From assembly GCA_947084965.1 (NCBI GenBank), contig CAMTUG010000001.1:276206-340205 (forward strand): a stretch of 64,000 bases of DNA, given 5' to 3'. Under the pieces are notes generated by a model. That model was not told the origin of the DNA. It searched no databases and saw only the letters and a program-made list of their open reading frames with translations. The translations under genes were made by a program, and so were the position numbers. Positions 1 to 28,324 of the stretch are shown piece after piece; the stretch's first letter is position 1, and each line of letters begins with the position of its first letter. The DNA comes from an uncultured Parcubacteria group bacterium (lineage in GTDB: Bacteria > Patescibacteriota > Patescibacteriia > UBA9934 > CAMTUG01).

Positions 1-907
1 AAAGATCAAGAAGCACGCCTTTCACCTGTTGATCTTTTCGATCCTTCTCCTGATCCTAGTTTTTATCCCAGGGATCGGATCGAGCTTTGGAACTTCGCAT
101 AGCTGGATTACGCTTGGCGGACTGTTTTCGATTCAGCCGGCCGAGATCGTCAAGCTGACCTTTTTGTTTTATCTCGCGGCCTGGCTGGAAAAGCGCGGCG
201 GGGTTGTCAAAGATCTGGATGGACTGATGCCGTTTCTGATCGCCCTTGGATCGGTGCTTTTTCTGATCGCCCTTCAGCCAGATACCGGCACCATGGCGGT
301 GATCGCGGGGATGTCGTTCATCGTCTACTTTGTCGCCGGCGCTCCGATTCTTCATTTGGCTGGACTTGGAGGGATTGGGGCGGTCTTTTTGCTCATCCTC
401 ATTAAATCATCGACCTATCGCGCCGAACGATTCATGGCTTTTTTACACCCCGAGCTTGATCCCCAGGGGATCGGGTATCATATTAACCAGGCACTTCTGG
501 CGATTGGCTCTGGTGGGTTATTCGGTTTGGGCTACGGCTTGTCGCGTCAAAAGTTCGAGTACCTGCCGGAAGTCGTCGGAGACTCGATCTTTGCAGTGAT
601 CGCTGAAGAGATGGGATTCGTGATCGCCGCCGGTTTGGTCGTTCTCTTCGTCGCCTTTTTGTGGCGCGGCATGAAAATCGCCAAAGCAGCGCCCGACGCT
701 TTTGGGAAATATTTGGTCGTCGGGGTTGTTTCGTGGATTACGATTCAGGCCTTTGTGAACATCGGTTCGATGACCTCGATCATGCCGATGACCGGAGTGA
801 CGCTGCCATTCGTCAGCTACGGCGGAACGTCGCTCGTAGTGTGTATGTCGGCGGTCGGGGTGGTGCTTAGTGTGTCACGTGGAAACTATGGGAATGCAAA
901 ATCCTAA
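1..907 (+). CDS. ftsW: FtsW/RodA (SEDS) family cell-division/elongation protein, 5'-truncated by the window edge
   Basis: Reading frame is open from position 2. C-terminal SEDS-like motifs are present (GYHINQALLAIGSGGLFGLGYGLS, PEVVGDSIFAVIAEE). It sits immediately upstream of murG, as in dcw clusters. Confidence 0.75.
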   Translation, partial: KIKKHAFHLLIFSILLLILVFIPGIGSSFGTSHSWITLGGLFSIQPAEIVKLTFLFYLAAWLEKRGGVVKDLDGLMPFLIALGSVLFLIALQPDTGTMAVIAGMSFIVYFVAGAPILHLAGLGGIGAVFLLILIKSSTYRAERFMAFLHPELDPQGIGYHINQALLAIGSGGLFGLGYGLSRQKFEYLPEVVGDSIFAVIAEEMGFVIAAGLVVLFVAFLWRGMKIAKAAPDAFGKYLVVGVVSWITIQAFVNIGSMTSIMPMTGVTLPFVSYGGTSLVVCMSAVGVVLSVSRGNYGNAKS

Positions 908-1018
908 ATACGAAACACGAAACACGAAACAATCGGAAAGTTCGAATAGGAAATGTTTGAATATTTTTGATTTACGATTTGATTTTGTTTCGTATTTCGT
1001 ATTTCGTATTTCGTATTT
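908..1018. repeat. Intergenic inverted array of heptamer repeats (ACGAAAC x3 ... TCGTATT x4) forming a long imperfect hairpin between ftsW stop and murG start
   Basis: Seen directly: aaatacgaaacacgaaacacgaaacaatcggaaag ... gttttgtttcgtatttcgtatttcgtatttcgtattt. It is related to the element at 6425-6545. Confidence 0.7.
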
Positions 1019-2098
1019 ATGAAAGTCATGCTCACAGGCGGAGGAACGCTCGGTCCGGTGACGCCGCTTTTGGCGATCGCCGAAGTCTGGCGTCGGGAAG
1101 ATATCCGTGCGGAGTTTGTCTGGATCGGCACACCTGGCGGACCGGAACGGAGCGTTGTCGAAGCGGCCGGGATCCCATTTCATCCTTTGTTTGTTCCTAA
1201 GCTTGATCGTTATGCTCCCGGGAAGTGGGTGTTCATTCCCTTTCGGTTGCTTTGGTCGATGAAGATGGCCCTGCACCTGATTCAACGCGAGCGGCCGGAT
1301 GTGGTGGTGACGGCTGGGGGGTATGTCAGCGTTCCGCTCCTGTGGGCCGCCAAGCTGTACGGCATCCCAACCTGGGTGCATCAGCAAGATGTGCGCGCCG
1401 GACTTGCCAATAAACTCATGGCGCCGTTTGCGACCAAGATTTCCGTCGCTTGGACGCGGTCGCTGCACGCGTTTGATGAGAAAAAGACGATCCATATCGG
1501 GAATCCGGTACGGGATTCTGTTTTGCACGGATCGCAGCAACGCGGGGCGGAGCGATTCGGATTTGATCTGTCGCGTCCAACGGTTCTGGTTTTTGGTGGT
1601 GGCACGGGCGCGGCCTGGATCAATCACGCGATCGCTCAGGTCGTTCCTGAATTGTGTATGACCGCGAATGTTCTGCATATCACCGGGCGAGGGAAGTTGA
1701 CGTCGGTCGAGCCTCGACCAAACTATCAGGCCGTAGAGTTACTCACGACCGAGATGCCGGATGCGCTCGCTCTCGCCGATCTGGTCGTCTGTCGTGCTGG
1801 CATGGCCACGATTTCCGAACTTGCCGCATTAGCCAAACCGGCGATGGTGATTCCGATCCCAGATTCGCACCAAGAAGATAACACCGCCGCCCTAGAAGAA
1901 CTCAGTGCTGCGGTGATTGTTCACCAGGCGCAGACAACGCCGCAGATGCTCTTGCAGCACATCCTTGGTTTTCTTGAGAATCCAGAAGAACGACGTAAGC
2001 TCGGTGCGCGACTGCACGCCGCGTTACCAACCACGGACGTTGCCCTCAAACTGGCGCATCATTTGGAAGCTATGGTAAAACAAGGATCCTCCCGCTAA
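1019..2098 (+). CDS. murG: UDP-N-acetylglucosamine--N-acetylmuramyl-(pentapeptide) pyrophosphoryl-undecaprenol GlcNAc transferase MurG
   Basis: N-terminus MKVMLTGGGTLGPVTPLLAIAE, GT28 architecture, 359 aa, adjacent to ftsW. Confidence 0.85.
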   Translation: MKVMLTGGGTLGPVTPLLAIAEVWRREDIRAEFVWIGTPGGPERSVVEAAGIPFHPLFVPKLDRYAPGKWVFIPFRLLWSMKMALHLIQRERPDVVVTAGGYVSVPLLWAAKLYGIPTWVHQQDVRAGLANKLMAPFATKISVAWTRSLHAFDEKKTIHIGNPVRDSVLHGSQQRGAERFGFDLSRPTVLVFGGGTGAAWINHAIAQVVPELCMTANVLHITGRGKLTSVEPRPNYQAVELLTTEMPDALALADLVVCRAGMATISELAALAKPAMVIPIPDSHQEDNTAALEELSAAVIVHQAQTTPQMLLQHILGFLENPEERRKLGARLHAALPTTDVALKLAHHLEAMVKQGSSR

Positions 2099-2154
2099 CC
2101 AGAAAAGCTCCCCATAAACATGAGAAGCTTTTCTGGTGCGCTGGGCGGGGATCG
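2092..2154. repeat. Copy 1 of a 63-nt direct repeat: murG 3' end, a bidirectional terminator hairpin and the last 21 nt of tRNA-Lys
   Basis: Identical 63-mer at 2092-2154 and 2266-2328: ccgctaaccagaaaagctccccataaacatgagaagcttttctggtgcgctgggcggggatcg. The hairpin is ccagaaaagct...agcttttctgg. Confidence 0.8.
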
Positions 2155-6424: not shown

Positions 6425-6545
6425 TATGAAAATACGAAATCCGGAAATCGAAATTCGAAACAAATCAGAATCGGAAAGGGAAAATTTCAAACCTTTCACT
6501 TTTTTCTCTTTTCCGATCGTTTCGAATTTCGATATTTGAATTTCG
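6425..6545. repeat. Intergenic inverted-repeat element with TTCGAA(A/T)-type units forming a long hairpin. Related to 908-1018
   Basis: aatcgaaattcgaaac ... gtttcgaatttcgat; tcggaaag ... cttttccga. It shares aatcggaaag and acgaaa units with the ftsW-murG element. Confidence 0.7.
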
Positions 6546-6550
6546 AATAT

Positions 6551-13572: not shown

Positions 13573-14043
13573 ATGGCTACCACAAACTTCATTCGCCGCC
13601 TGCTCGAACTACGTCTCTTCCTTGTGATTAACTTGGTGGCGCTCTTTTTCCTTTCACTTTCGTTCGGCCGCGAATATCTCCGTAATGCATCGATTGAGTC
13701 AGAAATTGCTTCGCTTAAAGCAGAAGAGTCAGCTCTTTCTGCCCGTAACCTAGAAATCATTGCTCTCTCTGAGTCTGTCCAAACTCAGTATTTTGTCGAA
13801 GGTGAGGGACGGGTCAAATACGGTTTACGCAAACCGGGGGAGGAATTGGTCGTTGTGACTCAAACGGAAACCGCCCAGCCACAGGCAACGGTGACGGACG
13901 GCCAGTCGGCCACGTCGAGCGACACAGGACCGACGGAATCAGAGGGGGAGGAGAACCGGGTAGGCAATCCGACGCGTTGGTGGTATTTCTTGTTCGATCA
14001 CCCGGCTTACGATCAACTGATCACAGACTATGGAAACGGCTGA
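13573..14043 (+). CDS. Septum formation initiator (FtsB/DivIC/FtsL-like)
   Basis: N-terminal TM, coiled coil, conserved YFVEGEGRVKYGLRKPGEELVVV tail. Confidence 0.65.
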   Translation: MATTNFIRRLLELRLFLVINLVALFFLSLSFGREYLRNASIESEIASLKAEESALSARNLEIIALSESVQTQYFVEGEGRVKYGLRKPGEELVVVTQTETAQPQATVTDGQSATSSDTGPTESEGEENRVGNPTRWWYFLFDHPAYDQLITDYGNG

Positions 14044-14935
14044 AGTCATCATTCATCCAAAACAGAAAACGCGCGCGCCTCGCTGGCCCTTCGCGATTTT
14101 ATTCGCGATCGCCTGTGTCGTGTTTGTTTGGTACGGCATGATGTATGGCCATAAGAGTGGTTGGGTCACGCGGTTTATCAGTGTTGTTCTCCCTGTGCCG
14201 GCGGTTGTGGTGAATGATGATACGATCACCTATCGCGATCTGCTGGTGCGGACGGATACGCTGTTATGGTTGAAGGGGGAGGACGCCGATCGCGAAGAGA
14301 CCTTTGCTCAGGCGATTAATGTGCTGATCGAGCAAGCACTTATTGAACAGATCGCTCGTGATTACGACGTCGAAGTGACCCGGGATGATAAGGATGCGGC
14401 GCTCTTGATGCTTGCAGGAGAGCTCGATGAAGATGCGTTTGCAGAAAAGATTCGCGACGAGTTGGATATGAGCTTGCGTCAGTTTGCGCGGGTGGTGGTC
14501 GAACCGCTCGCCTTGGCACAGAAACTTGAAATAGCGATTCATGAAGACGAGGCGACGCAAGCCGAAGTCCAGGCTAAGGCTGAAGAGGCGAGGGATAAGG
14601 TGTTGGCAGGGATGAGTTTTTCTGAAGCAGCAGCGCTCTATTCGCAAGATCCTTCGGGAGCAGAGGGCGGGGATGTTGGCTATATCACCAAAGCGACATT
14701 ACCAGCCGGTTGGGATATGTTGCTGACGTTACCAGAGGAGGGGGTGAGTGGGGTGATTGAAACAGAAGGGGAGTTCGTAATTTTGAAAGTCGCCTGGTTG
14801 GTTGGGGTCGGCGAAGATACACAGATCCGCACTCAGGCGATTATTCTCAAAAAGAAGACACTGTCAGAGATTGTTGCGTCGCGCCGCGAAACGAGTGATA
14901 TTTCGTACGTGGTGAAAAATGTTGATGGGCTCTAG
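14030..14935 (+). CDS. SurA/PrsA-like protein with PpiC (parvulin) peptidyl-prolyl isomerase domain
   Basis: N-terminal TM. C-terminal parvulin-like LAGMSFSEAAALYSQDPSGAEGGDVGYITKATLPAGWDMLLTLPEEGVSGVIETEGEFVILKV. Confidence 0.6.
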   Translation: METAEVIIHPKQKTRAPRWPFAILFAIACVVFVWYGMMYGHKSGWVTRFISVVLPVPAVVVNDDTITYRDLLVRTDTLLWLKGEDADREETFAQAINVLIEQALIEQIARDYDVEVTRDDKDAALLMLAGELDEDAFAEKIRDELDMSLRQFARVVVEPLALAQKLEIAIHEDEATQAEVQAKAEEARDKVLAGMSFSEAAALYSQDPSGAEGGDVGYITKATLPAGWDMLLTLPEEGVSGVIETEGEFVILKVAWLVGVGEDTQIRTQAIILKKKTLSEIVASRRETSDISYVVKNVDGL

Positions 14936-15012
14936 TTGGAGGTGCTTCAAAATACTGTTTTACAGTTCGTTTGAGCACATAATGTCGTCAAACGAACTGT
15001 AAAAGTACTTTT
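14936..15012. repeat. ~77-nt intergenic hairpin element, copy 1. Copy 2 is at 59868-59945
   Basis: ttttacaGTTCGTTTGAgcacataatgtcgTCAAACGAACtgtaaaag: 12-13 bp stem, 13-nt loop. ~85% identical to copy 2, including the flanks. Confidence 0.75.
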
Positions 15013-15034
15013 TAAGACACCCAACCTCGCGCGT

Positions 15035-15481: not shown

Positions 15482-15555
15482 GCGGGATTAGTACAGTGGT
15501 AGTATGCAAGCTTCCCAAGCTTGAGAGGCGAGTTCGATTCTCGTATCCCGCTCCA
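15482..15555 (+). tRNA. tRNA-Gly (anticodon CCC)
   Basis: GCGGGAT acceptor, D-arm GTACAGTGGTAGTAT, anticodon loop TTCCCAA, T-arm AGAGGCGAGTTCGATTCTCG, ATCCCGC-T-CCA. Confidence 0.85.
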
Positions 15556-15715
15556 GGAACATCGTAAATTTTGGAACACTGCTTTGTTGCGGGTCCCTGC
15601 CACCTTCGTCGACGCACCTTTCAGTGCGCCTCCTCGGATGGCATCCCGCGCCTCGCATTGTTCTCAAAATTGACGATGTTCCTGGAAGCCAGTCCCGATG
15701 ACTGTTGATTTTGAT

Positions 15716-15790
15716 GCCGATGTAGCTCAGTGGTAGAGCAATGCTTTCGTAAAGCAGAGGTCGCGAGTTCGACTCTCGCCATCGGCTCCA
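15716..15790 (+). tRNA. tRNA-Thr (anticodon CGT)
   Basis: GCCGATG acceptor, GCTCAGTGGTAGAGC, anticodon loop TTCGTAA, T-arm GCGAGTTCGACTCTCGC, CATCGGC-T-CCA. Confidence 0.85.
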
Positions 15791-15820
15791 AAAAATCTTC
15801 ACTTTGGTGGAGATTTTTTG
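15791..15820 (+). terminator. Rho-independent terminator after the tRNA-Gly/Thr pair
   Basis: aaaatcttcac-tttg-gtggagatttt, followed by a T-run. Confidence 0.6.
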
Positions 15821-15840
15821 TTGTGCTATACTGTTGGCGT

Positions 15841-16521
15841 GTGATTCACTTTAAGAACGTGACCAAAACATATCCACCGAACGTGGTGGGGCTGAAGGAC
15901 TGCTCCTTGCACATCAAACCAGGGGAGTTTGTTTGCATCGTCGGGAGGAGCGGAACGGGGAAGTCTACTCTCGCCAAATGTCTGTTTGCAGAAGAGCGCG
16001 CGGAGCGTGGAACGGTGGAGATTGGCGGCTGGGATATTACCAACATTAAAGCGAGTGAAGTTCCGTTGCTGCGTCGTCAGATCGGTGTCGTCTTCCAGGA
16101 CTTTAAATTATTGCCGAAAAAAACGGCGGAGGAGAACGTTTCCTTTGCCCTGGAAGTTGCCGGCGAACGTCCCAAGCGTATCCGCGAAGTGGTGCCGAAC
16201 GTGATGCGGATCGTCGGGCTGGGGGACAAAATGCACCGCTATCCACATCAGCTTTCCGGAGGGGAACAGCAGCGCATTTCAATCGCTCGTGCCTTGGTGC
16301 ATCGTCCGAAAGTGCTCGTCGCCGATGAACCAACGGGAAATTTAGACACGGTCAACACGCACGAAATCATCGAACTGCTCAAAAAGATTAACGACTTTGG
16401 GACAACGATCGTGCTCGTGACCCACAATCGCGAGGTAGTCAACAAGTTAAAAAAACGGGTCGTCACGCTCGAGGGGGGAAAGATCATCTCCGACGTTGAA
16501 GAAGGAAAATACAAACTGTGA
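15841..16521 (+). CDS. ftsE: Cell-division ABC transporter ATP-binding protein FtsE
   Basis: Walker A GRSGTGKST, ABC signature LSGGEQQRISIARAL, Walker B VLVADEPT. GTG start at 15841. The ORF-track extension back to 15730 would run into the tRNA-Thr. Confidence 0.8.
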   Translation: MIHFKNVTKTYPPNVVGLKDCSLHIKPGEFVCIVGRSGTGKSTLAKCLFAEERAERGTVEIGGWDITNIKASEVPLLRRQIGVVFQDFKLLPKKTAEENVSFALEVAGERPKRIREVVPNVMRIVGLGDKMHRYPHQLSGGEQQRISIARALVHRPKVLVADEPTGNLDTVNTHEIIELLKKINDFGTTIVLVTHNREVVNKLKKRVVTLEGGKIISDVEEGKYKL

Positions 16522-17429
16522 TTACAGTTTATCGCATCGGAAAATTTGCGTTCCAGAACTTCTGGAGGAATATCTGGCTCTCGATCATCACCGTGACCAT
16601 TTTGGTGTTGACGTTGCTCACCGTGAACATCCTTTTGGTGTTGAATGTGATCGGACAGACGGCGGTCAAGACGATTGAAGCGAAGATCGACGTCTCCGTG
16701 ACGTTCACTCCGGAGACGAGTACAACCCTGATCGGCAACGCTCGCGGATATTTGCTCTCCTTGCCGCAAGTTAAGGATGTGCGCACGCTCTCTCCAGAGG
16801 AGGTGTTGCGGGACTTCCGTGCAGACAACGCGGGGAATCCAGATGTCCTCGCTTCGCTCGATGAGGTCGAAGGCAATCCATTCGGTGGTCAGTTGGTGAT
16901 CCTCGCCAACAATCCGGAGGATTTCGATTTCATTCTGGAGGCGCTGGAAAGTCCAGAATACAAACCGTCTATCGCGGACAAAGATTTTGAAGATCATCAG
17001 GTGGTGATTCAGAACATCACGACGACCTTCGACAAGATTCGTACGGGGGGGATTATTCTCGGTGGAATCTTTTTGTTGATCACCGTTCTTATTATCGTGA
17101 ATACGATCCGGGTTGCTATTTATACCCACCGAGAAGAGATCGGCATTATGCGCCTCGTCGGTGCACCAAACTTCTTCATCCGCGCTCCATTCCTCGTCGA
17201 GGCGATGCTGTATACCTTGATCGCTGTGCTCGTAACGATCGCGATCGTCTATCCGACGATCAGCCTGATTGAGCCGGCTCTTGATGCCTTCTTCCAAACC
17301 ACGCCTACCGGTTTGCTGAGCTATTTCACCGCCAACTTTGAGCTTATTTTCGGCTTGCAGCTGGCGGCGCTCTGTATCATCAACATGGTTGCGACGGGGT
17401 TTGCTATGCGCAAGTACCTTCAGGTTTGA
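16518..17429 (+). CDS. ftsX: Cell-division permease FtsX
   Basis: FtsX topology of TM, large extracellular loop and 3 TM; overlaps ftsE by 4 nt. Confidence 0.8.
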   Translation: MITVYRIGKFAFQNFWRNIWLSIITVTILVLTLLTVNILLVLNVIGQTAVKTIEAKIDVSVTFTPETSTTLIGNARGYLLSLPQVKDVRTLSPEEVLRDFRADNAGNPDVLASLDEVEGNPFGGQLVILANNPEDFDFILEALESPEYKPSIADKDFEDHQVVIQNITTTFDKIRTGGIILGGIFLLITVLIIVNTIRVAIYTHREEIGIMRLVGAPNFFIRAPFLVEAMLYTLIAVLVTIAIVYPTISLIEPALDAFFQTTPTGLLSYFTANFELIFGLQLAALCIINMVATGFAMRKYLQV

Positions 17430-17556
17430 TGAAACGAGGTAAATTCCTCGATTTGCTGCGTTATGGGGCCCCGACGACTCCTCAACGTACCGGCCATGTA
17501 CGTCTTGATCGTCGTCCTCCCCATGCCTTGCAACTCGAGTTTTTACCTCGTTTCAT
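17429..17556. repeat. 128-nt imperfect palindromic long-hairpin element (REP/MITE-like), family copy E1
   Basis: Perfect 15-bp terminal inverted repeats atgaaacgaggtaaa / tttacctcgtttcat. Nested inner stems and an apical hairpin acgtac-cggccat-gtacgt. Related to the element at 27258-27379. Confidence 0.7.
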
Positions 17557-17593
17557 TGACTTAGCATCATCATTGTAGTACTATCCGATCCTT

Positions 17594-19048
17594 ATGACAG
17601 AGAACACGTTTTTCGGGTTAGGGATTGCGCCAAAGCTGCTCGACGTTTTGCAAGCCAATAAATACGTCACGCCAACGCCGATTCAGCAAAAGGCGATCCC
17701 GATCGCCATTGAAGGGAAGGATATCGTTGGAATCGCACAGACCGGAACGGGAAAGACGCTCGCTTTTTCCATCCCGATGCTTCAGCGACTGGCCGCCACC
17801 GGGGGAAAAGGGTTGGTGATTTTGCCAACCCGCGAATTAGCGTTGCAGGTCGAAGAAACGGTCATGAAGATCGGCCGCACGGCTGGGATTCGCACCGCTG
17901 TTTTAATTGGTGGTGCGTCGATGGGGTTACAGAAGAAGATGATCGAACGCAAGCCGCACGTGATCGTGGCCACCCCAGGTCGCTTGAATGATCATTTGCA
18001 GCAGGGGACGGTCAAGCTCGATGACGTCCGAGTTTTGGTGCTCGATGAAGCGGATCGCATGCTCGATATGGGCTTTGCTCCGCAGATCAACAAGATCATG
18101 GTCAAGTTGCCAAAGGATCGCCAGACGATGTTGTTTTCGGCAACGATGCCGCAGGAGATCGCCAAGATGGCCGCGGAATTTATGAAGCTCCCGTTGCGCG
18201 TCGAGATCGCCCGTCAAGGGACGACGGCTGAGCGGGTGGTGCAAGAAATGTTTGTGGTCAACAAAGAAGACAAGCAGCGTCTGCTCGAAAAATTACTCAC
18301 GGAATATAAAGGTACGGTTCTTGTCTTTTCACGCACCAAGCACGGGGCAAAAAAGATTTGCAAAGCGATCCAGACGATGGGGCACACCTCGGCCGAAATC
18401 CATTCCAATCGCTCACTTGCCCAGCGTAAAGAGGCGTTGAATGGATTTAAGAGCGGGAAGTATCGCGTCCTTGTAGCCACCGACATCGCTGCTCGCGGGA
18501 TCGACGTTACGGGGATTGAACTGGTCATCAACTTTGATCTTCCGGATGCTTCCGAAGACTACGTCCATCGCATCGGCCGCACCGGCCGCGCCGGCATGGC
18601 TGGTCGCGCTATTTCCTTTGCTACACCAGATCAACGCGGAGACATTCGCCAGATCGAGCGCTTAGTGCGTACCCAATTCAACTTGTTGAAACCAGAAGGG
18701 TTGCCAGAGCGCCGTGCTGCGCCGCCTGCTGATCCTAAGGATCAACGCACCCATGGCGGTCCTGCGCGTCATGGTGGAGGCCCATCACGCCACGGCCGTT
18801 CGCCACAAGGCGGCCGCCCGAATCGTGATGCTTCCCGTTTTGAACAAAAATCTCATCCAGCCCCACAGCATCACGCTTCGACCGGCGGATCGTCCGCTCC
18901 TCGTCGTGACGACGCTCGTCCACCGCGCCGAGACGATTCGCGTCCACCCCGCCGCGAAGGCGGTCACGGCCGCTCATCCGGCGCCGGCAATCCAAACCGC
19001 CCACCCAAGCGCGGCCCCAAGAAGTATTTTTACGGTTCAGCCTGGTAA
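17594..19048 (+). CDS. DEAD-box ATP-dependent RNA helicase with Arg/Gly/Pro-rich disordered C-terminal tail
   Basis: Q-motif, GTGKT, DEAD (VLDEADRML), SAT, HRIGRTGRAG; the tail carries RPPRRDD repeats. Confidence 0.85.
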   Translation: MTENTFFGLGIAPKLLDVLQANKYVTPTPIQQKAIPIAIEGKDIVGIAQTGTGKTLAFSIPMLQRLAATGGKGLVILPTRELALQVEETVMKIGRTAGIRTAVLIGGASMGLQKKMIERKPHVIVATPGRLNDHLQQGTVKLDDVRVLVLDEADRMLDMGFAPQINKIMVKLPKDRQTMLFSATMPQEIAKMAAEFMKLPLRVEIARQGTTAERVVQEMFVVNKEDKQRLLEKLLTEYKGTVLVFSRTKHGAKKICKAIQTMGHTSAEIHSNRSLAQRKEALNGFKSGKYRVLVATDIAARGIDVTGIELVINFDLPDASEDYVHRIGRTGRAGMAGRAISFATPDQRGDIRQIERLVRTQFNLLKPEGLPERRAAPPADPKDQRTHGGPARHGGGPSRHGRSPQGGRPNRDASRFEQKSHPAPQHHASTGGSSAPRRDDARPPRRDDSRPPRREGGHGRSSGAGNPNRPPKRGPKKYFYGSAW

Positions 19049-19060
19049 TCTCTGCTTCGT

Positions 19061-19384
19061 ATGCCCGTCATCCGCATTGATTTCGACAACGAAAAAGTTT
19101 CGGAGGCGGAGGTGAAATCGCTTTCAGAAGCGACGCGTATGATTGTCCTCGAGACGACCGGCACAGATGATGTGATGGTCTACGCCAACAGCGCACAGAT
19201 CAAAGTCAACGTGCACCCGATCGAGATCTTCGTACAAATGAGTGCGCATAAAGTGAAGGATCTCGAGGAACTCGTGGCCACCATCAAATCTCGCCTCGCG
19301 GAGTGGAAGCAAACAAACAACTTTACCCACCCGATCAATTTTACCTTCATGCCGATGCAGTGGAAGATCGAAATTGGGATTTAG
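19061..19384 (+). CDS. Hypothetical protein, possibly tautomerase/MIF-superfamily (N-terminal Met-Pro)
   Basis: Begins MPVIRIDF... and is ~107 aa; the assignment rests on weak resemblance only. Confidence 0.35.
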   Translation: MPVIRIDFDNEKVSEAEVKSLSEATRMIVLETTGTDDVMVYANSAQIKVNVHPIEIFVQMSAHKVKDLEELVATIKSRLAEWKQTNNFTHPINFTFMPMQWKIEIGI

Positions 19385-19529
19385 CCGATCTCTTGATCGA
19401 TTTAAGATTTTGTCGTACGATCCCCACGCATTCCGGGAGCCGACTGCATCGGCCCCGTCGTTCGCTCGGGAATGTCGAAGCGGTGAGTTTCTCCATTGCG
19501 CTCACTCACTCCGGGATCGTCTAATGGCA

Positions 19530-19603
19530 GGACAGCGGCCTTTGAAGCCGTGAATCGTGGTTCGAATCCACGTCCCGGAACCAAGAAAAATGACCAGCGC
19601 GTG
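19530..19603 (+). tRNA. tRNA-Gln (anticodon TTG)
   Basis: TCCGGGA acceptor, anticodon loop CTTTGAA, T-arm CGTGGTTCGAATCCACG, TCCCGGA-A-CCA. Confidence 0.8.
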
Positions 19604-19637
19604 CTGGTCGTTTTTCTTTGTCGACGTGGATTCGAAT
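19604..19637. terminator. Bidirectional terminator hairpin between tRNA-Gln and mscL
   Basis: aaaaat-gaccagc-gcgt-gctggtc-gttttt. Confidence 0.65.
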
Positions 19638-27252: not shown

Positions 27253-27257
27253 AATGT

Positions 27258-27379
27258 GGATCTTTAGAAAACTGCGTCTTTTCGTTTCACGGGTCCCGTC
27301 GACCCACTCAACGTAGAATCCCTACGTCTCGCGGGCTCGACACCCGTTCAACGAAAATACATCAGTTTTCTAAAGATCC
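27258..27379. repeat. 122-nt imperfect palindromic long-hairpin element, family copy E2
   Basis: Perfect 17-bp terminal inverted repeats ggatctttagaaaactg / cagttttctaaagatcc. Apical hairpin acgtag-aatcc-ctacgt. Inner motif ccgtcgacccactcaacgta is similar to E1 ccccgacgactcctcaacgta. Confidence 0.7.
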
Positions 27380-28324
27380 AAGAGCTAGTTCGAGATCTTC
27401 GATCGTCGAGATCGCGTGGAGTTTTTCGCGCATCATTTTGGCTCCGGGCAGGCCTTTGAAGTACCACATCAAATGCTTCCGGAAAGAGACGATCCCTTTG
27501 GGGCCGTACTGTTCAACGTGAAGTTCTGCATGACGGCGGATGACGCGCAGGCGTTCTTCAAAGCTCACTGGTGTTGGTGTTTTCCCATTCAATATTTCGT
27601 GCATCTGCGAAAAGATCCACGGATTGCCGAGCGCTCCGCGGGCGATCAGTACGCCGTCGCAGCCGGACGCTCTGAGCGCTTCGGGCATCAACTCGGCTTT
27701 ATGAATGTCACCGTTACACAATACAGGAATCGACACGGCAGACTTTACCTTACCAACCTGCACCCAATCAGCGGTACCAGAATAGCCTTGCATTTTCGTG
27801 CGTCCATGAACGGTGATCAGATCAGCTCCGGCCGCTTCAAGCACCTTAGCAAACTCCACGCACTGTTCAGGGTCGTTCCATCCAAGACGGATTTTGACTG
27901 AAAGTGGAACGTTGATCACCGCCTTCATCGCTTTTATAATCTCGCCGGCTAACTTTGGTTCTTTCATCAGCGCCGCGCCATTAAAGTTGTGGACGATTTT
28001 ATACACCGGGCATCCCATGTTGATGTCGAACCCTTCCGGGTTATGCTCAGCCGCGATGATCCGTGCCGACTCGGCCATCGTGGCCGGGTCGCTTCCAAAG
28101 ATCTGCTGCACCAAAGGCCGTTCCGCTGGGTGAATCTCGGTCATCCCGAGCGTTTTGTCCGATCCGCGTACCACCGCTTCGGCCGAAACCATCTCACGAA
28201 ATTCAACCAAGTTCACTTCCGGAGGAGTGACTTCGCGCACCACGCGACAAAAGGCCGAGTCGGTCATGTCGGCCATCGGCGAAAGCGCAATGATCGGGCG
28301 TGGGAGAGATTTCCAATCGAGCAT
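27362..28324 (-). CDS. tRNA-dihydrouridine synthase (DusB-like)
   Basis: ALSPMADMTDSAFCRV, TIM-barrel FMN motifs, catalytic-Cys region NMGCPV. Confidence 0.8.
   Translation of the reverse strand: MLDWKSLPRPIIALSPMADMTDSAFCRVVREVTPPEVNLVEFREMVSAEAVVRGSDKTLGMTEIHPAERPLVQQIFGSDPATMAESARIIAAEHNPEGFDINMGCPVYKIVHNFNGAALMKEPKLAGEIIKAMKAVINVPLSVKIRLGWNDPEQCVEFAKVLEAAGADLITVHGRTKMQGYSGTADWVQVGKVKSAVSIPVLCNGDIHKAELMPEALRASGCDGVLIARGALGNPWIFSQMHEILNGKTPTPVSFEERLRVIRRHAELHVEQYGPKGIVSFRKHLMWYFKGLPGAKMMREKLHAISTIEDLELALGSLEN

What the first reader, a model, noticed from the sequence alone, without database searches (positions are those of the whole stretch)
17429..17556. 128-nt near-palindromic long-hairpin element between ftsX and the DEAD-box helicase gene (E1)
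Perfect 15-bp terminal inverted repeats begin at the ftsX stop codon. They enclose nested imperfect stems and an apical ACGTAC...GTACGT hairpin. The architecture matches REP/ERIC/Correia-type miniature elements. It could also be a long structured 5' leader, such as a thermosensor, of the cold-shock-type helicase. A second family member is at 27258-27379.
Basis: seen in the sequence. Interest (0 to 1): 0.6.

Follow-up and report, generated by a model that had tools for sequence, protein, structure and literature searches.

The report
Widespread long-hairpin repeat at gene ends
The 128-base palindrome after ftsX is real and is one copy of a large, uncatalogued family of about 125-base hairpin-forming repeats that sit flush against stop codons and tRNA gene ends in bacteria from at least four phyla; it most resembles REP/REPIN-type selfish palindromic repeats and is not a leader of the helicase gene.

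Summary
Window 17429-17556 is a 128-nt single long hairpin with 15-bp perfect outer arms, starting at the last base of the ftsX stop codon. The second copy (27257-27380) is real, and a third lies between tRNA-Gly and tRNA-Thr (15552-15686). The host is a Candidatus Uhrbacteria (Patescibacteria) genome.

A covariance model found about 140 full-length relatives. 23 are in the window plus 13 of 80 Uhrbacteria/Patescibacteria loci. At least 117 are in metagenome and viral contigs, some from Nitrospira/Nitrospirota, Ca. Rokubacteria and Ca. Entotheonellia. Every helix covaries. The apical stem RCGUAC-loop-GUACGU sits on two G.U pairs and a tandem G.A loop, and it and a second internal loop are nearly invariant.

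No Rfam or Pfam family matches, and no plasmid record does.

Copies are present or absent at orthologous sites and are multi-copy per contig. One foot lies within a few bases of a stop codon in 38 of 115 cases, against 3 of 116 for the other foot, or against a tRNA end.

Best reading: a REP/REPIN-like non-autonomous palindromic repeat, co-transcribed as a 3'-end hairpin. The GTAG/CGTC tag, a target-site duplication and a linked transposase were not found. The helicase-leader (thermosensor) idea is not supported.

The parts
17429..17556 (-). E1: 128-nt long-hairpin repeat, family member. The strand given is the orientation of the covariance model. On the + strand it is co-oriented with ftsX.
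   Evidence: fold, arms; 118 bits on the - strand, 29 on the +.
17429..17443 (.). Left outer arm (ATGAAACGAGGTAAA). Its first base is the A of the ftsX TGA stop.
17542..17556 (.). Right outer arm (TTTACCTCGTTTCAT), perfectly complementary to the left arm.
17481..17507 (.). Conserved core, CTCA-ACGTAC-loop-GTACGT-CTTG on the + strand. On the - strand it reads CAAG-ACGUAC-loop-GUACGU-UGAG: an apical stem closed by a G.U pair, above a 2x2 purine loop that is a tandem G.A in most members and A.G/A.A in E1.
17455..17462 (.). One half of the conserved internal loop: GCTGCGTT on the + strand, AACGCAGC on the - strand.
   Evidence: Consensus AACG(A/C)(A/C)GC across 77 metagenome members.
17525..17531 (.). 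The other half of the conserved internal loop: GCCTTGC on the + strand, GCAAGGC on the - strand.
   Evidence: Consensus gC(A/G)AGGC.
17540..17544 (+). T5 run inside the 3' arm on the + strand, directly after the inner stem CCTCGA..TCGAG. It pairs with the A-rich part of the 5' arm. This A-run/T-run is shared by most family members.
   Evidence: The terminator scan itself found nothing.
17556..17584 (+). Sigma-70-like promoter TTGACT-17-TACTAT, 9 nt before the helicase ATG at 17594.
   Evidence: 9 of 12 matches; 0.5 expected per region.
17426..17429 (.). TTGA, repeated directly at 17556-17559 on the other side of TGAAACG..CGTTTCA. Seen at E1 only, so possibly chance.
   Evidence: No equivalent at E2, E3, L053 or L126.
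15552..15686 (-). E3: third family member, in the tRNA-Gly/tRNA-Thr spacer. Its arm includes the TCCA 3' end of tRNA-Gly.
   Evidence: The spacer is 1-16 nt in many relatives.
27257..27380 (-). E2: second family member, between dus and rimK (both on the - strand). Its 5' arm holds the last 6 codons and the stop of dus. Its 3' foot is 4 nt before the rimK ATG.

Best explanation
E1, E2 and E3 are copies of a non-autonomous, hairpin-forming interspersed repeat. It is REP/REPIN-like: about 125 nt, one long imperfect palindrome, in some subfamilies with a 24-40-nt tail on one side. The family has spread within and between genomes of several phyla.

Shown: it is a multi-copy family with a conserved fold. 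Copies are gained or lost at orthologous sites. Copies lie in intergenic DNA with one foot flush against a stop codon or a tRNA end.

Inferred: the fold and the invariant apical and internal-loop nucleotides are kept because a trans-acting protein recognises the folded single strand. A RAYT/IS200-type HUH enzyme is the model; none was found here. That protein would copy or move the element.

Inferred for this locus: E1 is transcribed as the 3' end of the ftsEX message. There its 47-bp hairpin, with an internal T5 run, would act as a 3'-end barrier against exonucleases and possibly as a terminator. Because it starts at the stop codon, it could also slow termination of FtsX translation, as reported for REPs closer than 16 nt to a stop codon. 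The helicase is read from its own promoter downstream of the element.
For: - Family and fold. A model built from E1 and L053 found 16 relatives, and the rebuilt model 23, in the window plus 13 Uhrbacteria/Patescibacteria loci. It found 77 and 43 more in metagenome and viral contigs that were picked only by a 19-base core pattern.
- Covariation. 90% and 89% of cells are paired, against 32-43% when partners are slid. 41 and 39 of 46 pairs show changes on both sides.
- Gain and loss. The tRNA-Gly/tRNA-Thr spacer is 1-16 nt in many relatives (1 nt in L001, one of the two loci with the closest FtsX). Other genomes hold a hairpin next to Gly, next to Thr, or both. The ftsX-helicase spacer of L002 and the dus-rimK spacer of L052 lack the element. 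L057 14802 is a decayed copy.
- Paralogs. Several contigs carry 2-5 copies. The two L111 copies are alike along the whole hairpin, and similarity ends 4-6 nt beyond its feet.
- Position. A stop codon of an ORF of at least 100 codons lies within -5..+2 of one foot in 38 of 115 cases, against 3 of 116 for the other foot. This matches the published habit of REPs, which sit less than 20 bp from ORF 3' ends (PMC3733652). REPs closer than 16 nt to a stop codon down-regulate translation (Liang et al. 2015, as cited in PMC12306157).
- Neighbours. Abutting genes are unrelated housekeeping genes.
- A-run/T-run in the arms. REPIN doublets interpreted as co-opted terminators show the same (PMC3337134).
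Against: - Canonical REP/REPIN features are missing. There is no GT[AG]G or CGTC tag at the foot, no evident pair of short REP palindromes, and no RAYT/IS200-like gene. Clustering of ORFs in the 120 metagenome loci showed no recurrent non-housekeeping protein family. Only fragments of genomes were available.
- No consistent target-site duplication or conserved terminal repeat was found.
- The invariant nucleotides are the same from 38% to 78% GC, across Patescibacteria, Nitrospirota, Rokubacteria and Entotheonellia. That is unusual for REPs, which co-evolve with a lineage-specific transposase. It would fit a host-function RNA equally well.
- The stronger fold and the purine-rich non-Watson-Crick motifs are on the strand opposite to the one co-transcribed with the upstream gene in most copies.
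- The simple terminator scan finds nothing at E1.
- There are no expression data.
Confidence: 0.55

Rival explanations
1. It is a host-function structured RNA module rather than selfish DNA. One version is a 3'-end element coupled to translation termination, acting as a terminator, a stabiliser, or a docking site for a conserved RNA-binding protein or RNase. The other version is a small RNA read from the strand that carries the G.U / G.A motifs.
For: - Every helix covaries, while the unpaired or non-Watson-Crick nucleotides are nearly invariant across four phyla and 38-78% GC. These are two G.U pairs, a tandem G.A, and the gCAAGGC / AACGMMGC loop.
- G.U pairs outnumber A.C on one strand: 266:61, or 121:61 without the two fixed columns.
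- That strand folds 4-20 kcal/mol better in all copies examined.
- One foot sits at the stop codon to within a few bases.
- A promoter-like site on the - strand, CTGTCA-17-TACAAT at 17600-17572, points into E1.
Against: - Copies are absent at orthologous sites in relatives, and one copy is decayed.
- In the same tRNA-Gly/Thr operon the element occurs in either orientation.
- No conserved promoter lies upstream in the model orientation in the Uhrbacteria copies (by eye).
- In most copies the co-transcribed strand is the weaker, pyrimidine-loop strand.
- Several copies per contig beside unrelated genes is atypical of a dedicated RNA gene.
- The alignment was fitted to the model strand, which inflates the G.U count.
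Confidence: 0.25
2. It is a classical MITE, or the end of a DNA transposon, moved by a DDE or IS200/IS605-type transposase with a defined target. Candidates are IS630/Correia-like (TA target) or an IS605-like peel-and-paste element inserting next to a short target sequence.
For: - Presence or absence polymorphism and paralogous copies.
- E1 is flanked by the direct repeat TTGA.
- In the Nitrospira-type subfamily the flush stop codon is usually TA followed by the first stem G.
- Some subfamilies carry a conserved tail on one side, which makes the unit asymmetric like IS200/IS605 ends.
Against: - No repeat flanks E2, E3, L053, L126 or the L111 pair.
- TA precedes the element only where a gene ends there, not otherwise.
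- Outer arms differ between copies, while the centre is the conserved part. This is the reverse of transposase-bound terminal repeats.
- No transposase was found near any copy.
Confidence: 0.1
3. It is a 5' leader of the DEAD-box helicase mRNA, for example an RNA thermometer.
For: The position is upstream of a cold-shock-type helicase gene, and the structure is strong.
Against: - A promoter-like site lies between the hairpin and the ATG.
- The hairpin ends 37 nt before the ATG and does not pair with the start region.
- The same element sits beside tRNAs, dus/rimK and dozens of unrelated genes.
- L002, whose helicase is 83% identical, lacks it.
Confidence: 0.03
4. It is an integron attC-like recombination site.
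For: The size (57-141 bp range), an imperfect palindrome directly after an ORF stop with a preferred orientation relative to the ORF, and a conserved structure with variable sequence.
Against: - The feet read TGRAACG..CGTTYCA or GCAGG..CCTGC, not RYYYAAC..GTTRRRY.
- The centre is conserved and the ends vary, the opposite of attC.
- Neighbours are core genes and tRNAs, not cassette arrays.
- The attC features are recalled from established knowledge, not from a library test.
Confidence: 0.02

Closest known systems
REPINs (REP doublets forming hairpins) and their RAYT transposases
   Same: Hairpin-forming, non-coding, multi-copy and extragenic. Size is about 100 nt. Site occupancy varies between relatives. 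The arms carry A/T runs, as in REPINs read as co-opted terminators. The element can fold as single-stranded DNA or as RNA (PMC3337134).
   Different: No two recognisable short REP palindromes, no GT[AG]G tag, and no RAYT seen. The most conserved part is the apex and the internal loops rather than the REP arms. The same core occurs in at least four phyla, whereas REPIN-RAYT pairs are lineage-specific (PMC6006769).
GTAG- and CGTC-tagged REP super-families (Di Nocera et al. 2013)
   Same: Super-families span several phyla. [quoted passage not shown] They are often annotated as spurious small ORFs (PMC3733652).
   Different: Those units have 5-13-bp stems and 2-20-nt loops with an unpaired tag at one end. 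This one is a single hairpin of about 47 bp with no such tag. It is also flush against the mature ends of tRNA genes.
Correia (Neisseria) and ERIC (enterobacterial) elements
   Different: Correia elements have conserved 26-bp terminal repeats and a TA duplication. ERIC is confined to enterobacteria and relatives. Neither feature was met here, and no sequence similarity was tested or seen.
Intrinsic (bidirectional) terminators
   Same: A hairpin directly after a gene or a tRNA, with an A-run in the 5' arm and a T-run in the 3' arm.
   Different: It is four to five times longer than usual. The T-run is internal to the outer stem in E1. Non-helical nucleotides are conserved. In L053 and L006 the next gene starts 13-14 nt after the element, so read-through must occur. 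The terminator scan was negative.

Membership tests
Canonical REP | Unpaired GT[AG]G (or CGTC) tetranucleotide at the foot of the stem-loop (PMC6006769, PMC3733652) | tested here: not met
   The feet and flanks of E1, E2, E3 and 22 relatives, and of 77 metagenome copies, were listed. No GTAG/GTGG/CGTC motif recurs at either foot.
Canonical REP | Short imperfect palindrome (stems 5-13 bp, about 20-40 nt) | tested here: not met
   A single hairpin of 109-135 nt with 42-52 pairs.
Canonical REP | Many copies per genome, extragenic, close to the 3' ends of ORFs | tested here: met
   3 copies in 64 kb, 5 in the 21 kb of L045 and 4 in L057. All are intergenic. A stop codon lies within -5..+2 of one foot in 38 of 115 cases. 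A whole-genome count was not possible.
REPIN | [quoted passage not shown] | tested here: inconclusive
   The whole element is one long hairpin. The arms show no evident self-palindromic REP unit when read by eye. No dedicated test was run.
REPIN / REPtron | A cognate single-copy RAYT (tnpA-REP, with HUH and Y motifs), usually flanked by the repeats | not testable with these tools
   Only fragments of carrier genomes are held. ORF clustering of 120 metagenome loci gave only ABC transporters, response regulators and the like. The window's other ORFs were not scanned.
MITE (Correia, ERIC, IS630-type) | Terminal inverted repeats conserved between copies | tested here: not met
   Outer arms differ between copies: ATGAAACGAGGTAAA, TGGATCTTTAGAAAACTG, TCCAGGAACATCGT. 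Only a loose TGRAAC..GTTYCA recurs in some Uhrbacteria copies. The centre is the conserved part.
MITE (Correia, ERIC, IS630-type) | Target-site duplication flanking each copy | tested here: not met
   TTGA flanks E1 only. There is no repeat at E2, E3, L053, L126 or the L111 pair. TA precedes the element only where it is part of a stop codon.
MITE (any) | Filled versus empty sites at orthologous loci | tested here: met
   The tRNA-Gly/Thr spacer is 1-16 nt in many relatives against 140-324 nt where it holds family hairpins (window, L002, L045, L057) and 408 nt in L055. The ftsX-helicase site (L002) and the dus-rimK site (L052) are empty. The genomes are too diverged to define exact boundaries.
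RNA thermometer / 5' leader of the helicase | Lies within the transcript's 5' UTR and occludes the ribosome-binding site or start codon | tested here: not met
   A promoter-like site at 17556-17584 lies downstream of the hairpin. The hairpin ends 37 nt before the ATG and pairs only with itself. The transcript start was not measured.
Intrinsic terminator | GC-rich stem followed directly by a U-tract | tested here: inconclusive
   The scan found none in 17300-17700. A T5 run follows the inner stem but is itself paired in the outer stem.
Integron attC | R''/R' core sites RYYYAAC..GTTRRRY, cassette arrays, a nearby integrase | tested here: not met
   The feet do not fit the core sites. Neighbours are ftsX, a helicase, tRNAs, dus and rimK.
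Any Rfam 15 family | A covariance-model match at or near the gathering score | tested here: not met
   Only tRNAs matched in the window and in 16 carrier loci. The E-value mode gave only chance-level hits.

The most novel reading that the evidence does not exclude
The element is not merely selfish DNA. It would be a cross-phylum structured nucleic-acid module whose invariant non-Watson-Crick core (two G.U pairs, a tandem G.A, and the AAGG/AACG loop) binds a conserved cellular factor. Its placement at the exact ends of functional units (stop codons, tRNA +1, tRNA CCA) would reflect a mechanism. One possibility is a 3'-end element coupled to translation termination and RNA processing. Another is an insertion process that joins the element to processed RNA or DNA ends.
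Probability: 0.15. Interest if true: 0.8.

Novelty: new variant of a known kind. Interest (0 to 1): 0.55.

Why it matters
- It would add a large, so far uncatalogued family of structured repeats shared by streamlined CPR bacteria and by abundant soil and groundwater lineages (Nitrospira, Rokubacteria, Entotheonellia).
- Gene callers translate it into spurious small proteins, and it shapes the 3' ends of many transcripts, so a model for it would improve annotation.
- Its presence in roughly 1-Mb episymbiont genomes, wedged into tRNA operons whose spacers are otherwise 1-4 nt, is a clear case of repeat invasion in reduced genomes.
- The one-sided flush placement at stop codons and tRNA ends, and the invariant core across phyla, are not explained by what is known of REPs. 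Both are testable in cultivable Nitrospira.

Tried and rejected
- **Rfam.** Gathering and E-value modes on the window, on E1 and on 16 + 4 carrier loci gave nothing but tRNAs.
- **Sliding-window folding of the whole window.** Too noisy. Replaced by a seed-based hairpin scan.
- **MAFFT alignment of 11 members.** Too poor outside the core for a consensus fold. Solved by building a model from the two colinear copies and iterating.
- **tRNA adjacency as the defining rule.** It held for 15-16 of 25 copies in ftsX-centred loci. It was largely a sampling effect: only 2 of 77 independent metagenome copies abut a tRNA.
- **TA or CTAG target with duplication.** CTAG occurs downstream in about 16 of 77 copies, roughly the chance rate. 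TA is tied to the presence of a stop codon, not to the element.
- **A conserved promoter upstream in the model orientation.** No consistent -10 element in the Uhrbacteria copies.
- **A linked protein.** ORF clustering plus Pfam gave only common families.
- **Pfam on translations of the element.** No family.
- **Plasmids and viral contigs.** No match in the plasmid collection; only 5 viral contigs.
- **Full-text search for the core sequence and for CPR, Nitrospira or Rokubacteria repeats.** Nothing describing this family.
- **Alignment of the L002 ftsX-helicase spacer to E1.** No convincing relic.
- **Two failed calls.** One wrong reading frame and one sequence over the length limit.
Full report
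**The observation.** The sequence at 17429-17556 is as described.
- Two 15-nt arms (ATGAAACGAGGTAAA / TTTACCTCGTTTCAT) are perfectly complementary, with 98 nt between them.
- The 128 nt fold into one unbranched hairpin of about 47 pairs. The + strand gives -57.7 kcal/mol (z = -8.4) and the - strand -64.7 (z = -10.2). None of 200 shuffles folds as well.
- The apex is ACGTAC-N7-GTACGT at 17485-17503. The relaxed pattern occurs only here and at 27311-27327, against 0.1 expected.
- The first paired base is the A of the TGA that ends ORF 16518-17429.
- Pfam confirms FtsE (15730-16521), FtsX (16518-17429) and a DEAD-box helicase (17594-19048). The second copy lies between a Dus and a RimK gene, both on the - strand.
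- That second copy is 27257-27380, with 18-bp perfect arms and z = -11.4 / -13.6.
It lies between tRNA-Gly and tRNA-Thr and starts within the TCCA end of tRNA-Gly.

**The host.** FtsX relatives in the species-representative genome collection are all Candidatus Uhrbacteria or other Patescibacteria MAGs. The best is only 61% identical, so the window comes from an unsampled Uhrbacteria-like CPR bacterium.

**It is a family.** A seed-based hairpin scan of the 80 related loci turned up look-alikes.
- L053 17278-17403 resembles E1, and L006 7516-7643 resembles E2. The inner 100 nt or so are alike, with compensatory changes, while the outer arms are mostly different.
- A covariance model built from E1 and L053 found 16 matches. 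The rebuilt model found 23, in the window plus 13 of the 80 loci.
- On the 16-member alignment, 90% of cells are paired against 34-43% when the 3' partners are slid. 41 of 46 pairs show changes on both sides.
- With filters off, the window holds exactly three members. All score far better on the - strand: 118, 93 and 87 bits, against 29, 22 and 25 on the + strand.
- No Rfam 15 family matches the window, E1 or 20 carrier loci.

- The model then recognised full-length hairpins of about 125 nt in nearly all of them. It gave 77 and 43 matches, in contigs of 37-78% GC.
- On the 77, 88.6% of cells are paired against 32-43% slid, and 39 of 46 pairs change on both sides. The apical pairs were fixed by the search pattern and carry no information.
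- Proteins encoded next to five copies fall in 90%-identity clusters with NCBI entries. These are named Nitrospira / Nitrospirota / Nitrospiraceae (three contigs), Candidatus Entotheonellia, and Candidatus Rokubacteria.
- Neighbouring genes include a proteasomal ATPase, a sigma-54 activator, an ammonium transporter, UvrD, EgtB and a B12 radical-SAM enzyme.
- The plasmid collection has no match, and the viral collection has only five.

**Anatomy.** This is read on the strand the model prefers, which is the window's - strand.
- An outer stem of 6-19 perfect pairs, with variable sequence.
- An A-run in the 5' arm opposite a T-run in the 3' arm.
- A stem, then an internal loop with nearly invariant gC(A/G)AGGC opposite AACG(A/C)(A/C)GC.
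- A GC-rich stem, a tandem G.A 2x2 loop (C-GA-G / U-GA-G), and two G.U pairs.
- The stem CGUAC/GUACG, and a loop of 5-10 nt with variable sequence.
- G.U pairs outnumber A.C pairs 266:61, or 121:61 without the two fixed columns. This strand folds 4-20 kcal/mol better in every copy examined. The alignment was fitted to that strand, so the count leans that way.

**Position and polarity.** In the ftsX-centred loci, 15 of 25 copies lie 0-12 nt from a tRNA gene, with a probable sixteenth in L033.
- It is always the same foot that faces the tRNA: the 3' foot in model orientation.
- That foot sits either just upstream of tRNA position +1 on the same strand, or just after the CCA end on the opposite strand.
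- This was largely repeated sampling of the same tRNA loci. Only 2 of 77 independent metagenome copies abut a tRNA.
- The general rule appears without any gene caller. Take the longest ORF of at least 100 codons that ends near a foot. Its stop codon lies within -5..+2 of the first stem base in 38 of 115 copies, on the strand reading CTCAACGTAC..GTACGYCTC.
- At the other foot the figure is 3 of 116. There, gene ends are spread from -120 to -6.
- TAG is the commonest flush stop (36 of 78). In the Nitrospira-type subfamily (arms GCAGGATGCT..AGCATCCTGC) the stop is typically TA plus the first stem G.
- E1 follows this rule: its foot is at the ftsX stop, on the gene's strand. E3 does too, with its foot at the tRNA-Gly CCA.
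- E2 is the minority arrangement. The flush foot lies 4 nt before the rimK ATG, and the other arm contains the last codons of dus.

**Gain and loss.**
- The tRNA-Gly(ccc)/tRNA-Thr(cgt) pair is conserved in about 30 loci. The spacer is 1-16 nt in many (1 nt in L001, which with L002 has the closest FtsX, 61% identical).
- The spacer is 140-324 nt where it holds one or two family hairpins (window, L002, L045, L057), and 408 nt in L055, which holds one plus other sequence. L049 (103 nt) holds a hairpin of another family, and L012 (455 nt) a GIY-YIG-like ORF.
- Different genomes carry the hairpin beside Gly, beside Thr, or both, in opposite orientations.
- L002, whose helicase is 83% identical, has a 160-nt ftsX-helicase spacer with no family match.
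- L052 has a dus-rimK spacer with no hairpin.
- L126 has a copy directly after an ftsX-like 3' end. L057 14802 is a decayed copy.
- Copies within one contig stay similar up to 0-6 nt beyond the flush foot. In some subfamilies they stay similar for 24-40 nt beyond the other foot. So the unit is a hairpin with an optional one-sided tail, which partly explains the polarity.
- No consistent target-site duplication exists. E1 alone is flanked by TTGA (17426-17429 and 17556-17559).

**The helicase-leader idea.**
- A sigma-70-like site (TTGACT-17-TACTAT, 17556-17584) lies between the hairpin and the ATG at 17594. Two such sites were found in the region against 0.5 expected. The other is on the - strand and points into the hairpin.
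- The hairpin pairs only with itself.
- It occurs beside unrelated genes, and a close helicase ortholog lacks it.
- The idea is therefore not supported. The transcript start itself was not measured.

**Interpretation.** The best-supported reading is a REP/REPIN-like, non-autonomous palindromic repeat.
- REPINs are hairpin-forming doublets thought to be mobilised in trans by a RAYT. Some are read as co-opted terminators because of flanking A and T runs (PMC3337134).
- REP super-families span several phyla and hug ORF 3' ends (PMC3733652).
- REPs closer than 16 nt to a stop codon reduce translation of the upstream gene (Liang et al. 2015, as cited in PMC12306157).
- What is shown here is the family, its fold, its polymorphic distribution and its placement.
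- What is inferred is the mode of spread (a structure-specific enzyme acting on the folded single strand) and the local effect (a 3'-end hairpin of the ftsEX message).
- Against full membership: there is no GT[AG]G or CGTC tag, no recognisable REP doublet, and no linked transposase in the fragments available.
- Also against it: the non-helical nucleotides stay the same across four phyla. That would suit a host-function RNA or a conserved binding partner at least as well.
- I put the selfish-repeat reading at about 0.55 and a host-function structured element at about 0.25. A classical transposase-driven MITE is at about 0.1, and the helicase leader and attC readings are at a few per cent.

**Limits.**
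- No complete carrier genome, expression data or strain-level comparison was available.
- The metagenome set was ascertained by the core pattern.
- ORF ends were inferred from open frames.
- Taxonomy rests on five contigs.
- The model-fitted alignments lean toward the modelled structure and strand.

Noticed in passing
L056 1263-1360; L073 11486-11581; L074 11082-11171; L078 9275-9346: tRNA-Gln genes near ftsX in relatives are flanked by 9-13-bp perfect inverted repeats. These extend the acceptor stem, and no CCA is encoded. 4 of 185 tRNAs reach at least 9 bp, against a maximum of 6 in position-shuffled controls. It could be a processing stem.
   Followed up: partly
window 19510-19636: The T-arm/acceptor 3' half of tRNA-Gln (19561-19574) has a perfect 14-nt complement at 19623-19636, with a terminator-like hairpin between them. 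An alternative pairing could compete with the tRNA fold.
   Followed up: no
window 2091-2145 and 2264-2318: A 55-nt palindromic unit (CCAGAAAAGCT..AGCTTTTCTGG) is duplicated next to and overlapping the 3' end of tRNA-Lys (2308-2382, - strand). This resembles an integration scar or a partial tRNA duplication.
   Followed up: no
window 893-1022 and 6432-6548: AT-rich intergenic hairpins built from ACGAAAC / CGAAAT repeats (z = -5.4 and -4.7). They are not members of the family studied.
   Followed up: no
window 14941-15021: An 81-nt near-perfect hairpin (z = -8.3) lies directly after ORF 14030-14935. It is likely a terminator or a different repeat.
   Followed up: no
window 19351-19453: A 103-nt single hairpin overlaps the end of ORF 19061-19384, 56 nt upstream of tRNA-Gln. 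The family model does not recognise it.
   Followed up: partly
L049 8788-8884 and 8965-9061: A different 97-nt hairpin family (CACGTACCAAAC..GTTTGGTACGTG) flanks tRNA-Gly on both sides within a few bases. Several unrelated hairpin families therefore occupy tRNA flanks in these CPR genomes.
   Followed up: no
L006 10131-10230; L017 6014-6127; L042 4910-5033; L051 11764-11859: Another interspersed hairpin repeat, with arms GTCATTGCGAG and core GAAGCAATC..GATTGCTTC, recurs in several Uhrbacteria loci.
   Followed up: no
L012 1472-1926: The tRNA-Gly/tRNA-Thr spacer holds a small GIY-YIG-like ORF (MHYVYVLFS..YVGYTNDLNRRLKEH) flanked by short GAGCTCAGCTC-type hairpins. This spacer is a hot spot for selfish insertions.
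   Followed up: no
L122, L134, L114 and other Nitrospira-type copies: On the strand co-oriented with the upstream gene, the element reads as a small open frame (MLKKSASGVL..STYP.GYAS..LLDSLFEHPAG). It is likely to be called as a hypothetical protein. Pfam has no family for it.
   Followed up: partly
L121, L097, L117, L133 (about 45 nt beyond the non-flush foot): The tail of the Nitrospira-type subfamily is conserved for about 45 nt (GGYCYGCACGT-N3-GG..CAACAGGAGAAC). Its role is unknown.
   Followed up: no
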